Below are positions 60,333-62,265 of a DNA stretch of 64,000 nt, piece by piece. Source of the stretch: Candidatus Woesearchaeota archaeon (GTDB taxonomy: Archaea; Nanobdellota; Nanobdellia; Woesearchaeales; ARS49); the NCBI GenBank assembly GCA_003599055.1, contig QZIM01000018.1, positions 1,178 to 65,177 on the forward strand, given 5' to 3'. The notes under the pieces were generated by a model. That model was not told the DNA's origin. It searched no databases and saw only the letters and a program-made list of their open reading frames with translations. Position numbers and translations under genes: made by a program. How positions within the stretch are numbered: the first letter of the stretch is position 1; each line of letters begins with the position of its first letter.

Positions 60333-61118
60333 ATGAACGACCTGCGCACTACTGCAAAGAACATCCGCCAAGACATCATCAAAATGCTTGCGCGCAGCGC
60401 GCACGGCACAGCCACCTCCCTTGGGCTCGTTGACATCCTTGTCGCCCTCTACTTTGGCGGAATGCAACACAACCCGCGAAACCCCTCCTCAAACGAACGC
60501 GACCGCCTCGTCCTCTCCAACACCCACTGCGCCCCCGCACTCTATGCCACGCTTGCACACGCAGGATACTTCTCCAAAAAACACCTCTACACATTCACAA
60601 AACAAGGAAGCATCCTCCAAGGCAGGCCAACCCTGCAAACTCCCGGCGTAGACGCTTCCTGCGACACCCCCGGAAACGGCCTTGGCATTGCGTGCGGAAT
60701 GGCACTTGCGGGCGAAACGCACACGTTCTGCATCCTCGGAGACGGCGAACACCAAAACGGCACGGTCTGGGAAGCAGCACTCTTTGCCGCAAACCACAAG
60801 CTCCCCCTCATCGCAATCATCGACCGCAACAACATCCAGGGCGACGGCAACACCGAACACATCGCCCCACTCGGCGACTTGGCCGCAAAATACCGCGCCT
60901 TTGGCTGGACCGTCCTTGAAACCGACGGCCACCACATTGCAGACCTCCAAAAAGCAATCACGGCAGGCAAGCAAACACCCGGCCCCGTTGCAATCATTGC
61001 ACACACCACGAGCGGAAAAGGAGTCCGCTTCATCGAGCACGACCACCGCTGGCACAAGCCAGTCACACCCGCACAGGCAAAAATCGCACTCGCAGAACTC
61101 ACATATGAAAAACACTAA
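60333..61118 (+). CDS. Transketolase N-terminal subunit homolog (catalytically divergent)
   Basis: RDRLVLSN.H.APALY, GDGE....VWEA, DRN..Q.DG, AFGW, DGH, GKGV.F.E; but QGHP->QGRP, GSLGQG->DTPGNG, QEG->QNG. Confidence 0.85.
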   Translation: MNDLRTTAKNIRQDIIKMLARSAHGTATSLGLVDILVALYFGGMQHNPRNPSSNERDRLVLSNTHCAPALYATLAHAGYFSKKHLYTFTKQGSILQGRPTLQTPGVDASCDTPGNGLGIACGMALAGETHTFCILGDGEHQNGTVWEAALFAANHKLPLIAIIDRNNIQGDGNTEHIAPLGDLAAKYRAFGWTVLETDGHHIADLQKAITAGKQTPGPVAIIAHTTSGKGVRFIEHDHRWHKPVTPAQAKIALAELTYEKH

Positions 61119-62265
61119 ACACCCCATCCAAGACGCACTCACGGAAATCGCAGAATACCAAGACATCACTGTTCTCACAAGCGACATCGCGGAAAGCACC
61201 AAAACAGGCACTCTTGCAAAAACCCACCCCTCCCGATTCATCAACACCGGCGCATCAGGCCCACTCTCCCTTCTCCTTGCCATCGGACTCTCCCTTCGCG
61301 GAAAAAAACCGGTCGTCATCACGTACGCCGCAACCCTTGAGCCGCGCCTTGTCAACCTCGCGCGCAAAAACAACGCAAACATCACCATCATCGCAAGCCA
61401 CTCCGGAATCAGCACCGCACAAGACGGAAACGCCCTGCACGCAACACACGATACCGCACACCTTCGCGCAATACCCACCCTCACCTTAATTGAACCTGCG
61501 GATTCAACAGAAACCCGCAGAGCAATCATTGCAAGCGCAAGCCGCAAAGGAATCAACGTCATCCGATTGGGCAAAGAAATCCCAGAAGGAATCACGGACA
61601 AACACCCCTTTCTCTTCGGCAAGGCAAACACCATTCGCTTGGGCAAAGATTGCACCCTTATCGCAAGCGGAAACTGCCTGCCCCTTGCCCTTCGCGCAGA
61701 AGAACGCCTCAATAGGCAAGGAATCACCTGCACGGTCATCAACAACAGCACCCTCTCACCCATTGATACCCACACCCTCCTTTCCGCACTTGAAGAAACC
61801 GGATGCGGCGTCACCATCGAAGAACACAACAAACACAGCGGCACAGGACACGCCCTGTCCGCACGCATTAAAGAGCCGATTGAAAAAGTCGGGCTCTCAT
61901 CTGACACCGAAAGCGGCACCCGCAGCGAGATCCTCGGAAAACACGGCATCACCGTCGAACACATCATTGCATCGGCAAAAAAAGCAATCGCCCGCAAATG
62001 CCAGCACACTTCACGCGACAAAAAAACCTCTCCGCACACCGCATTTCGCCTCCAAAACGGAAAAACAATACACTCCCTTGGCGAACTTGCCGCAACCATC
62101 GCAACACTGGACGACGCAACATACACCCATCACGCAAACAACACGCGCAACGACTTCGCACAATGGATACACGACGTGTTCGGCGAAAAAACACTCGCAC
62201 AGGAAGTTGCCAGCGCAAAAAACAAGCTTGCATCGGCAAGCACAATCCACCGGTGGCTCAAATGA
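61105..62265 (+). CDS. Transketolase C-terminal subunit homolog (divergent) fused to a DUF5752-like domain
   Basis: VL.SD..ST, P.RF, EPAD..ET, IRLG, PID, TIEEH; GIAEQ->GASGP; C-terminal FRLQNGKTIHSLGEL...HHAN..RNDFAQWI.DVFG...LA (62044-62265). Confidence 0.85.
   Translation: MKNTKHPIQDALTEIAEYQDITVLTSDIAESTKTGTLAKTHPSRFINTGASGPLSLLLAIGLSLRGKKPVVITYAATLEPRLVNLARKNNANITIIASHSGISTAQDGNALHATHDTAHLRAIPTLTLIEPADSTETRRAIIASASRKGINVIRLGKEIPEGITDKHPFLFGKANTIRLGKDCTLIASGNCLPLALRAEERLNRQGITCTVINNSTLSPIDTHTLLSALEETGCGVTIEEHNKHSGTGHALSARIKEPIEKVGLSSDTESGTRSEILGKHGITVEHIIASAKKAIARKCQHTSRDKKTSPHTAFRLQNGKTIHSLGELAATIATLDDATYTHHANNTRNDFAQWIHDVFGEKTLAQEVASAKNKLASASTIHRWLK

What the first reader, a model, noticed from the sequence alone, without database searches (positions are those of the whole stretch)
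60333..62265. Full-length but apparently catalytically dead split transketolase carrying an extra domain
Seen: both subunits are intact, overlapping ORFs, yet conserved motifs are altered: GSGHPGGS->SAHGTATS, LQGHP->LQGRP, TGSLGQG->CDTPGNG, GDGE.QEG->GDGEHQNG, GIAEQ->GASGP and GEDGATHQ->AQDGNALH. Known: the Glu of GIAEQ activates ThDP, and the His residues bind substrate or cofactor in transketolases. Neighbouring rpiB and rpe retain their catalytic motifs. Inference: this is a pseudo-enzyme kept as a regulatory, sensing or scaffolding partner (possibly hetero-oligomerising with an active transketolase), or a gene in early decay.
Basis: partly seen in the sequence, partly recalled or inferred. 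Interest (0 to 1): 0.75.

Follow-up and report, generated by a model that had tools for sequence, protein, structure and literature searches.

The report
Conserved dead split transketolase, DPANN archaea
A two-gene transketolase in a tiny archaeal genome has lost the residues needed for catalysis yet has been kept intact under selection in a whole group of related archaea, so it is probably a non-catalytic protein and should not be counted as a working pathway enzyme.

Summary
tktN (60333-61118) and tktC (61105-62265) are intact, overlap by 14 nt, and match the solved split transketolase of C. hydrogenoformans (E 1e-53 and 5e-43). Ten of 21 cofactor or substrate positions are changed, including the ThDP-activating Glu (to Gly).

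This is not early decay. Degenerate split TKs occur in 18 related genomes of 5 genera (relatives are titled Woesearchaeota/Nanoarchaeia). Seventeen form one clade (SH-aLRT 100) nested among canonical split TKs. Different lineages carry different substitutions or deletions of the catalytic loops. All ORFs are intact, and dN/dS is 0.08-0.29. The genes stay in a cutA-rpiB-rpe-tktN-tktC cluster.

The genome has an intact fused 617-aa TK on another contig. Fifteen of 18 dead-TK genomes have a fused TK, against 2 of 30 canonical-split genomes.

The extra 83-aa domain is one repeat of the OrfY/DUF5752 fold (PDB 4CSO, Z 9.9). It also sits on canonical split TKs of this family, so it predates the loss of catalysis. 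It is relatively the best-conserved region in the dead clade. Free copies lie beside GH57 and glycogen-synthase genes.

Best reading: a retained pseudoenzyme whose function is not known.

The parts
60333..61118 (+). tktN: N-terminal (PP-domain) subunit of a split transketolase, 261 aa, catalytically degenerate
   Evidence: ORF and translation. PF00456 at E 1.4e-31. 6yak N chain at E 1e-53 with the motif changes visible. Residue table: H69R, G117D, L119P, E163N and a disrupted H28 motif, while D158, G159, E168, N188, I190 and H263 are kept.
61105..62004 (+). tktC, TK part (Pyr domain plus TK C-terminal domain, residues 1 to about 300), catalytically degenerate
   Evidence: PF02779 and PF02780. 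6yaj at E 5.4e-43. E411G, F437T, H473L, R357K and R520K are changed, while D380, S384, Y434, H461 and D469 are kept. The AF2 model has pLDDT 93.5 and pTM 0.92. It superposes on 6yaj with TMt 0.88 and rmsd 2.6 over 305 columns.
62014..62265 (+). C-terminal extension of tktC (residues 304-386): a single OrfY/DUF5752-like module
   Evidence: Pfam DUF5752 at E 5.3e-5, 23.1 bits against a cut-off of 23; 26 of 27 aligned homologues hit it at E<=0.1. The AF2 model has pLDDT 94.9. Foldseek top hits are 4cso, OrfY of T. tenax, at probability 1.0. VIA-align gives Z 9.9, rmsd 2.2, 82 residues, with the next hit at Z 5.5. The profile hits both halves of 4cso at E 9e-6.
57886..58317 (+). rpiB (ribose-5-phosphate isomerase B), same gene cluster
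   Evidence: PF02502 at E 1.1e-47. It is 72-78% identical in dead-clade relatives and lies upstream of rpe-tktN-tktC.
58823..59464 (+). rpe (ribulose-phosphate 3-epimerase), same gene cluster
   Evidence: PF00834 at E 1e-44. It is 54-68% identical in the dead-clade loci and genomes where a match was found.
52892..53236 (+). free-standing OrfY/DUF5752-like module protein (114 aa)
   Evidence: An HMM built from 25 TK extensions hits it at E 3.9e-18 in a six-frame search of the genome. It aligns in A2 and lies directly downstream of GH57.
53233..53775 (+). second free-standing OrfY/DUF5752-like module protein (180 aa) with a hydrophobic C-terminal stretch
   Evidence: HMM hit at E 1.2e-19. Pfam DUF5752 at E 2.6e-5. 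Sequence.
50411..52895 (+). glycogen-type cluster next to the free modules: GT1/GT5 glycosyltransferase (50411-51634) and GH57 (51678-52895)
   Evidence: Pfam: Glycos_transf_1 at 4e-33, Glyco_transf_5 at 1e-22, Glyco_hydro_57 at 2e-73.

Best explanation
tktN/tktC encode a split transketolase that can no longer carry out ThDP-dependent ketol transfer. It is kept by selection as a folded, non-catalytic protein, that is, a pseudoenzyme.

It is one member, and the least eroded one, of a clade of such proteins in a group of DPANN archaea. The related MAGs are titled Woesearchaeota or Nanoarchaeia.

Inferred history: the ancestral split TK of the rpiB-rpe-tkt cluster already carried a C-terminal OrfY/DUF5752-like module. 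In one lineage a fused, human-type TK encoded elsewhere in the genome took over catalysis. Constraint on the cofactor-activating and substrate residues of the split TK then relaxed. Constraint persisted on the fold, on the TK C-terminal domain and on the OrfY-like module.

What is shown: loss of catalytic residues, clade-wide retention, purifying selection, an intact paralogue, and the identity of the extra domain.

What is inferred: the remaining role is structural or regulatory, most likely exercised through the TK_C domain plus OrfY-like module. In this genus it may also involve a still-intact diphosphate/Mg2+ motif (GDG...N) and sugar-phosphate-binding residues. Co-production with RpiB and Rpe is also inferred.
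For: 1. Catalytic positions. Ten of 21 cofactor or substrate positions are changed in the window's copy: E411G (the Glu that hydrogen-bonds N1' of ThDP), H69R, G117D, L119P, E163N, F437T, H473L, R357K, R520K and a disrupted H28 motif. Residue roles are taken from PMC4601599 section 3.2.

2. A shared but heterogeneous state. Eighteen genomes of genera g1, g16, g12, g40 and g13 carry degenerate versions. Their substitutions differ, and in g16 the LQGHP, G-loop, GIAEQ and H..G.DG..HQ segments are deleted outright. In contrast, all 30 f1 canonical N-subunits examined are canonical at these positions apart from E163.

3. Single clade. The 17 dead rows form one clade with SH-aLRT 100, nested inside canonical split TKs. 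The adjacent rpe gene groups the same genomes: 50-68% identity to the window, against 42% or less for canonical-split genomes.

4. Purifying selection. NG86 dN/dS is 0.19-0.26 for L033/L036 (dS 0.45-0.61), 0.12-0.15 for L030/L032, 0.10-0.14 for L028/L029, and 0.21 (N subunit) and 0.12 (C subunit) for the window against G002. No ORF examined has an internal stop.

5. Fold retained. The AF2 model has pLDDT 93.5 and superposes on 6yaj with TMt 0.88.

6. Intact paralogue. A 617-aa fused TK on G000:C9 has canonical GSGHP, LEGHP, TGSLGQG, GDGE..EG, FIAEQ and GEDGPSQ motifs. Fifteen of 18 dead-TK genomes have a fused-type hit, against 2 of 30 canonical-split genomes.

7. Shift of constraint. The rank order of mean pairwise identity reverses between the two groups. 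Canonical: PP 0.61, Pyr 0.61, TK_C 0.54, extension 0.35. Dead clade: extension 0.52, TK_C 0.51, PP 0.51, Pyr 0.42.

8. Operon context kept. The order cutA-rpiB-rpe-tktN-tktC is conserved, with short gaps or overlaps.
Against: 1. There is no expression or protein evidence. No RNA run holding the stretch was listed.

2. Loss of the activating Glu alone does not prove inactivity. Glyoxylate carboligase is an active ThDP enzyme without it (recalled, not checked here).

3. The window's copy keeps the GDG...N diphosphate/Mg2+ motif, H263, S384, H461 and D469. Binding of ThDP or a sugar phosphate, or some residual or altered chemistry, is therefore not excluded for genus g1.

4. dS between the window's copy and its closest relative is high (1.4) to saturated. 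The clean dN/dS values come from genus g16, not from this copy. NG86 ignores the strong strand and codon bias seen.

5. I defined the 'dead' group after looking at the motifs. Long-branch attraction could inflate its support: two rows have end branches of 1.5-2.2, and the tree used the quick method.

6. The association with the fused TK comes from one clade, so it counts as roughly one evolutionary event. Only the window genome's own fused TK was checked for canonical motifs.

7. All data come from MAGs.
Confidence: 0.7

Rival explanations
1. Neofunctionalised binding protein or enzyme. The genus-g1 protein still binds ThDP, or another diphosphate-bearing ligand, and sugar phosphates. It acts as a sensor or carries out different chemistry, rather than being a purely structural pseudoenzyme.
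For: D158 is kept in all 17 dead rows tabulated. E168 and N188 are kept in most. The window's copy also keeps G159, I190, H263, D380, S384, H461 and D469, which are the diphosphate/Mg2+ and sugar-phosphate contacts (roles from PMC4601599). dN/dS is well below 1.
Against: The pyrimidine-binding and activating set (G117, L119, E411, F437, H473) is lost in the window's copy. The substitutions differ between the three g1 genomes (E411 is G, D or E; H69 is R, R or Q). In g16 whole binding loops are deleted. This is the pattern of relaxation, not of a new conserved site.
Confidence: 0.15
2. Regulatory or inhibitory subunit that forms mixed oligomers with the active fused transketolase.
For: An intact fused TK is present in the same genome and in 15 of 18 dead-TK genomes. 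TK active sites lie at subunit interfaces (PMC13663882, introduction passage).
Against: G050 (100% complete) and G047 (95%) have only the dead split TK by PF00456 search. The fused TK is only 26-36% identical to the split subunits. The dead TK is encoded with rpiB and rpe, not with the fused TK. No interaction was tested.
Confidence: 0.08
3. Non-functional relic. The genes are decaying slowly and their intactness is fortuitous.
For: Catalytic motifs erode progressively and differently between lineages. Several family members have lost the split TK altogether and keep only a fused TK: about 10 genomes, for example G009, G021, G022 and G006.
Against: ORFs are intact in 18 genomes of 5 genera, with 28-67% identity to the window's subunits in the dead-clade loci compared. 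dN/dS is 0.08-0.29. The extension and TK_C domain are well conserved. These genomes are only 0.7-1.6 Mb; I would expect useless genes to be lost quickly from genomes this small (an expectation, not tested here).
Confidence: 0.07

Closest known systems
Split transketolase of Carboxydothermus hydrogenoformans (PDB 6YAK/6YAJ) and other characterised split TKs
   Same: Two-gene architecture: the N subunit is the PP domain, and the C subunit is the Pyr plus TK_C domains. These are the best sequence matches (E 1e-53 and 5e-43) and a fold match (TMt 0.88). The solved enzyme assembles as a heterotetramer (PMC13663882, introduction passage).
   Different: Those enzymes keep the canonical His residues and are active, or are at least canonical in sequence (PMC13663882, passages read). 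The window's protein has 10 of 21 key positions changed, including the activating Glu. It also carries an 83-aa C-terminal OrfY-like module that 6yaj lacks.
Human TKTL1/TKTL2 (transketolase-like proteins); recalled, not examined here
   Same: Paralogues of an active transketolase with altered or deleted active-site segments, kept alongside the active enzyme, with debated activity.
   Different: They are eukaryotic, single-chain proteins with no OrfY-like module.
OrfY of Thermoproteus tenax (PDB 4CSO) / Pfam DUF5752
   Same: The C-terminal 83 residues share the fold (VIA Z 9.9, rmsd 2.2 A, 82 residues; Foldseek probability 1.0). They also share the NDF..W..(F) motif (profile E 9e-6; Pfam DUF5752).
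   Different: OrfY has 216 residues, and the profile matches it twice (residues 63-87 and 166-190), so it is a tandem of two modules. The TK extension is a single module fused to an enzyme-derived body. OrfY's function is unknown to me. The PDB molecule name reads 'ORFY PROTEIN, TRANSCRIPTION FACTOR'. No paper on it was found.
The intact fused transketolase of the same genome (G000:C9, 617 aa)
   Same: Same superfamily and domain order. It belongs to the short, human-like TK type, with Gln at the H473 position.
   Different: Single chain, canonical at all 21 positions tabulated (Gln at H473, as in mammalian TKs). It has no OrfY-like module, is not in the rpiB-rpe cluster, and is only 26-36% identical to the split subunits.

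Membership tests
Transketolase (ThDP-dependent, EC 2.2.1.1), split type | PP, Pyr and TK_C domains with the TK fold, encoded as two adjacent genes | tested here: met
   PF00456, PF02779 and PF02780 score above their cut-offs. 6yak and 6yaj are the best hits. The C-subunit model superposes on 6yaj with TMt 0.88. The genes overlap by 14 nt.
Transketolase (ThDP-dependent, EC 2.2.1.1), split type | Conserved Glu of the GIAEQ motif that hydrogen-bonds N1' of the ThDP pyrimidine and activates the cofactor | tested here: not met
   GIAEQ is replaced by GASGP, with Gly at the Glu position. The role of this Glu is from PMC4601599 section 3.2.
Transketolase (ThDP-dependent, EC 2.2.1.1), split type | Pyrimidine-pocket residues (G117, L119, F437, H473 equivalents) and His residues of the PP domain (H28, H69) | tested here: not met
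   G117D, L119P, F437T, H473L, H69R and a disrupted H28 motif. I assigned the numbering by motif correspondence, not by alignment to the numbered enzymes.
Transketolase (ThDP-dependent, EC 2.2.1.1), split type | Diphosphate/Mg2+ motif GDG...N | tested here: met
   GDGEHQNG...DRNNIQ: D158, G159, N188 and I190 are kept.
Transketolase (ThDP-dependent, EC 2.2.1.1), split type | Ketol-transfer activity and ThDP binding | not testable with these tools
   Needs purified protein.
OrfY / DUF5752 (PF19027) | Sequence match to the family profile | tested here: met
   The extension alone scores 23.1 bits against a cut-off of 23 (E 5.3e-5), which is marginal. Twenty-six of 27 homologous modules match at E<=0.1, with the best at 4.6e-6. 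The profile of A2 hits 4cso at E 9.1e-6. The Atlas nearest clusters are DUF5752 proteins.
OrfY / DUF5752 (PF19027) | Shared fold with the solved member (4CSO) | tested here: met
   VIA-align Z 9.9, rmsd 2.2 A, 82 of 83 residues aligned, with the next hit at Z 5.5. The three Foldseek top rows are 4cso chains at probability 1.0.
OrfY / DUF5752 (PF19027) | Two-module (about 210 aa) architecture of OrfY and the Pfam model | tested here: not met
   There is only one module. It matches profile positions about 52-80 of 208. 4cso is matched twice by the single-module profile.
Pseudoenzyme (operational definition) | Homologue of an enzyme that lacks key catalytic residues but evolves under purifying selection | tested here: met
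   Residue loss. dN/dS of 0.08-0.29 within the clade. ORFs intact in 18 genomes.
Pseudoenzyme (operational definition) | The protein is made and lacks the ancestral activity | not testable with these tools
   No RNA run was listed.

The most novel reading that the evidence does not exclude
The dead split transketolase has become a sugar-phosphate-sensing adaptor. Its body keeps the diphosphate and sugar-phosphate contacts. Its OrfY-like module pairs with the free OrfY-like module proteins encoded beside GH57 and glycogen synthase, one of which has a hydrophobic C-terminal anchor. Pentose-phosphate status would thereby be coupled to glycogen storage and mobilisation in these host-dependent archaea. 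On this reading the OrfY/DUF5752 module is a general docking domain of carbohydrate-metabolism enzymes: TK in Woesearchaeota, HAD sugar phosphatases in bacteria, and OrfY in T. tenax.
Probability: 0.12. Interest if true: 0.8.

Novelty: new variant of a known kind. Interest (0 to 1): 0.6.

Why it matters
1. Metabolic reconstructions. Reconstructions of DPANN archaea count tktAB genes as evidence for a non-oxidative pentose phosphate pathway (PMC11606122 figure legend; PMC8407392 abstract and passage). In this clade the tktAB pair is almost certainly not a working enzyme. In at least two near-complete genomes (G050, G047) it is the only TK homologue found. Pathway calls for these organisms would therefore be wrong.

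2. A long-lived prokaryotic pseudoenzyme. It is an unusually clear case, kept in its ancestral operon through the divergence of five genera in genomes of about 1 Mb. That argues for a real non-catalytic function. I found no report of a prokaryotic pseudo-transketolase.

3. A first genomic context for OrfY/DUF5752. This module has a solved structure but no known function. Here it is fused to TK C-subunits, and free copies sit next to GH57 and glycogen-synthase genes.

Tried and rejected
P0002 alone found nothing. A narrower alignment, A3, worked.
- Expression: the look-up of sequencing runs listed no RNA holder. One DNA run holds 0.62 of the sampled words, and four others hold 0.08 or less.
- Complex prediction with two copies of the OrfY-like extension gave 'no answer' (score 0.00, mark 0.42). 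This is no evidence either way.
- Literature with no hits: 'DUF5752', 'OrfY' with 'Thermoproteus tenax', and 'OrfY' with trehalose and archaea. The 2008 TreT paper (PubMed 18483808), which I recall as the source of the name orfY, is not held. PMC3634074 does not mention orfY. 'transketolase' with 'pseudoenzyme' gave 4 papers, none on prokaryotic TKs judging by titles and abstract starts.
- Transaldolase (PF00923) was not found in the window's genome, which is 88.7% complete. This does not show absence.
- Rejected: that the extra domain arose with, or caused, the loss of catalysis. It is present on canonical split TKs.
- Rejected: a frameshift or assembly artefact. The same architecture recurs in 18 independent assemblies.
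Full report
**What is there**

The region holds two intact, same-strand ORFs. tktN is 60333-61118 (261 aa). tktC is 61105-62265 (386 aa). They overlap by 14 nt.

Pfam assigns Transketolase_N to the first, and Transket_pyr plus Transketolase_C to the second. NCBIfam transketolase models match, but far below their full-length cut-offs, as expected for halves. The best solved relatives are the two chains of the split transketolase of Carboxydothermus hydrogenoformans: 6yak at E 1e-53, and 6yaj/6yak at E 5.4e-43.

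They also show that tktC continues about 85 residues beyond the end of the TK C-terminal domain.

**How damaged is the active site?**

I used the window genome's own intact fused TK as the canonical reference and tabulated 21 positions. Their roles are described for L. salivarius, S. cerevisiae and E. coli TK in PMC4601599, section 3.2 (passages read). I assigned the numbering by motif correspondence, not by alignment to those enzymes.

- Kept in the window's copy: D158, G159, E168, N188, I190, H263, D380, S384, Y at 434, H461 and D469.
- Changed: H69R, G117D, L119P, E163N, R357K, E411G, F437T, H473L, R520K. The H28 motif is disrupted by a one-residue deletion.

So the diphosphate/Mg2+ motif and several sugar-phosphate contacts survive. 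The residues that hold and activate the ThDP pyrimidine ring are gone, including the Glu that hydrogen-bonds N1'.

The fold itself is predicted with confidence. The C subunit model has pLDDT 93.5 and pTM 0.92. It superposes on 6yaj with TMt 0.88 and rmsd 2.6 A over 305 columns, and on human TK with TMq 0.71.

**Is there an intact paralogue?**

Yes. The genome is 1.15 Mb in 26 contigs and 88.7% complete. It has a 617-aa single-chain TK on contig C9 with canonical GSGHP, LEGHP, TGSLGQG, GDGE..EG, FIAEQ and GEDGPSQ motifs. A third Transket_pyr hit, on C17, belongs to an E1alpha/E1beta/E2 2-oxoacid dehydrogenase cluster.

**Do orthologues share the state?**

I searched 41 related genomes with tktC and all 77 genomes of the family (f1) with tktN. 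I fetched the loci and aligned both subunits.

Degenerate split TKs are present in 18 genomes of five genera:
- g1: the window's genome, G001 and G002.
- g16: G017, G042, G043, G044, G046, G047, G048 (N subunit only), G050, G051, G052, G053 and G054.
- g12: G013.
- g40: G055.
- g13: G014.

The damage differs between lineages. At E411 the three g1 genomes have G, D and E. In g16 the LQGHP loop, the G-rich loop, the GIAEQ segment and the H..G.DG..HQ segment are largely deleted. Only D158 is kept in all 17 dead rows tabulated.

In contrast, 30 published f1 genomes carry N-subunits that are canonical at all 11 N-subunit positions, except for E163 (A or S) in some (10 genomes, 20). The window's copy is the least eroded member of the degenerate group.

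**One origin, retained**

I built a tree from concatenated N and C subunits with the extension removed (36 rows, IQ-TREE quick mode, LG+C20). All 17 degenerate rows fall in one clade with SH-aLRT 100, nested among canonical split TKs of the family. The window's copy is sister to G002.

Caveats on the tree:
- I defined the group after seeing the motifs.
- Two rows have very long branches.
- Row L024 comes from an unpublished genome (G011).

An independent check comes from the neighbouring rpe gene. It is 50-68% identical to the window's in the 17 dead-clade genomes where a match was found, and 42% or less in all canonical-split genomes. The grouping is therefore not just attraction of fast-evolving TK sequences.

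The gene order (cutA-)rpiB-rpe-tktN-tktC is kept in the dead clade. RpiB is 72-78% identical and Rpe 54-66%, whereas TktN is 35-67% and TktC 28-42%.

**Selection**

Nei-Gojobori dN/dS values within the dead clade:

| Pair | dN/dS | dS |
|---|---|---|
| L033/L036 | 0.19-0.26 | 0.45-0.61 |
| L033/L035 | 0.22-0.26 | about 0.5 |
| L030/L032 | 0.12-0.15 | about 1 |
| L028/L029 | 0.10-0.14 | about 1-1.3 |
| L022/L028 | 0.08-0.11 | 1.8-2.4, near saturation |
| Window vs G002, N subunit | 0.21 | 1.4 |
| Window vs G002, C subunit | 0.12 | saturated |
| Window vs G001 | 0.23-0.29 | 1.7-1.9, near saturation |

Saturation of dS makes these ratios over-estimates, if anything.

That is not what is seen. 'Early decay' is rejected.

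Constraint has also moved. In canonical sequences, mean pairwise identity is PP 0.61, Pyr 0.61, TK_C 0.54 and extension 0.35. In the dead clade it is extension 0.52, TK_C 0.51, PP 0.51 and Pyr 0.42. Only the rank order within each group is comparable, because the two groups differ in phylogenetic breadth.

**Relation to the fused TK**

I took a match to tktN inside an open frame of 468 aa or more as a fused-type TK. For three genomes I also ran a PF00456 search.

- Fifteen of 18 dead-TK genomes have a fused TK.
- G051 has only a fragment.
- G047 (95% complete) and G050 (100% complete) have none.
- Two of the 30 canonical-split genomes have one (G063 and G071).
- About ten family members have only a fused TK.

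This fits replacement of the split enzyme by the fused one. The split genes were lost outright in most lineages and retained in degenerate form in one. Because the dead clade is a single lineage, the association amounts to roughly one event. Only the window genome's fused TK was checked for canonical motifs.

The two genomes with only the dead TK argue against an obligatory partnership with the fused TK.

**The extra domain**

Residues 304-386 of tktC fold confidently on their own (pLDDT 94.9).

- Foldseek's only convincing hits are chains of 4CSO, 'OrfY from Thermoproteus tenax', at probability 1.0.
- The Foldseek-independent search gives 4cso at Z 9.9, rmsd 2.2 A and 82 residues, against Z 5.5 for the next entry.
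- A profile of 27 such modules hits 4cso at E 9e-6 in two places (residues 63-87 and 166-190). OrfY is therefore a tandem of two modules sharing an NDF..W motif.
- Pfam calls the module DUF5752. The window's extension scores 23.1 bits against a cut-off of 23, and 26 of 27 modules match at E<=0.1.
- The ESM Atlas neighbours are DUF5752 proteins.

The module is also present on nine canonical split TK C-subunits (L009-L016 and L018). It predates the loss of catalysis. In a search for longer proteins carrying the module, 9 of 14 hits were TK C-subunit fusions, one of them named 'transketolase family protein [Candidatus Woesearchaeota archaeon]'. That search is word-seeded from TK extensions, so it is biased towards them.

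**Free copies of the module**

The window's genome has two free copies, at 52892-53236 and 53233-53775. They lie directly after a GT1/GT5 glycosyltransferase and a GH57 gene, and before a PfkB kinase and a class II aldolase.

Of 12 archaeal loci with free modules, 7 have GH57 immediately upstream (L083, L084, L085, L088, L091, L095, L096). One more (L090) has Glycogen_syn immediately downstream. Four do not show this context (L081, L086, L089, L093).

In Acidobacteria the module ends HAD (Hydrolase_3) proteins (L099, L101, L102). The Atlas shows the same HAD+DUF87 fusions in other bacteria.

I found no paper on DUF5752 or OrfY. Its function is unknown to me.

**Organism**

Relatives retrieved from public records with the dead-clade alignment are titled Candidatus Woesearchaeota, Candidatus Nanoarchaeia or Nanoarchaeota archaeon. 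Several TPA assemblies are labelled 'uncultured Methanosarcinales archaeon'. By kinship, the window is from a DPANN archaeon of that group.

PMC8407392 (abstract and one passage) states that many DPANN, including Woesearchaeota, acquired TK from bacteria. PMC11606122 lists tktAB among the genes in its Woesearchaeota metabolic-map legend (figure-legend passage).

**Verdict**

It is a conserved clade of catalytically degenerate split transketolases, retained under purifying selection in the ancestral pentose-phosphate cluster. It usually sits beside an intact fused TK and carries an ancestral OrfY/DUF5752-like module.

The function of the retained protein is not established. I favour a non-catalytic structural or regulatory role (0.7), with residual ligand binding possible in this genus.

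There is no expression or biochemical evidence. The complex prediction for module self-association gave no answer.

Noticed in passing
window 1-64000: The + strand has negative GC skew in every 2-kb bin (-0.07 to -0.33) and positive AT skew in all but the first bin (-0.06 there, 0.06 to 0.34 elsewhere). Nearly all convincing genes in the part I read are on the + strand. This looks like a strong C/A-rich coding-strand bias.
   Followed up: no
window 50411-56517: A carbohydrate-storage and glycolysis cluster. In order: GT1/GT5 glycogen-synthase-like gene, GH57, two single-module DUF5752/OrfY-like genes, a PfkB kinase, a weak TauD-like gene on the minus strand, and a class II fructose-bisphosphate aldolase. 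The second module protein (53233-53775) ends in a hydrophobic stretch that could be a membrane anchor.
   Followed up: partly
window 59483-60271: A 262-aa ORF lies between rpe and tktN. It has no Pfam match. Its N-terminus looks like a signal or lipoprotein peptide (...GTLSC, by eye). It is conserved (53%) only in G002/L044 among the loci compared.
   Followed up: partly
G000:C17 (locus L004 429-3528): An E1alpha, E1beta and E2 (lipoyl/biotinyl domain) 2-oxoacid dehydrogenase cluster, in a 1.15-Mb DPANN-type genome.
   Followed up: no
G000 whole genome: No transaldolase (PF00923) match was found, although rpiB, rpe and an intact TK are present. The genome is 88.7% complete, so absence is not shown.
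   Followed up: partly
loci L044, L045, L047, L048, L050, L052, L056, L072 and others: Public TPA assemblies of close relatives are titled 'uncultured Methanosarcinales archaeon'. Sister records with the same gene cluster are titled Woesearchaeota or Nanoarchaeia. The Methanosarcinales labels look like automatic mis-assignments.
   Followed up: no
loci L099, L101, L102 (Acidobacteria); Atlas rows 4-10: The OrfY/DUF5752-like module also ends bacterial proteins of 500-610 aa. These have an N-terminal HAD sugar-phosphatase domain (Hydrolase_3/S6PP) and a DUF87/HerA-like P-loop region. It also ends archaeal HerA-like proteins of about 790 aa.
   Followed up: partly
loci L054, L059, L064 (CPR bacteria): Candidate-phyla-radiation bacteria carry the same rpiB-rpe-tktN-tktC order, with canonical-length C subunits lacking the extension (matches end near residue 298-307). 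This fits the reported bacterial origin of DPANN transketolases (PMC8407392).
   Followed up: no
dead-clade extensions, alignment A2 columns about 10-20 and the HHCN motif: In g16, G001 and G013 the linker and module carry conserved Cys residues (CE..C...PEEHG and HHCN). The window's copy (HHAN) and most canonical copies (HHVN) lack them. This could be a metal site gained in part of the dead clade.
   Followed up: no
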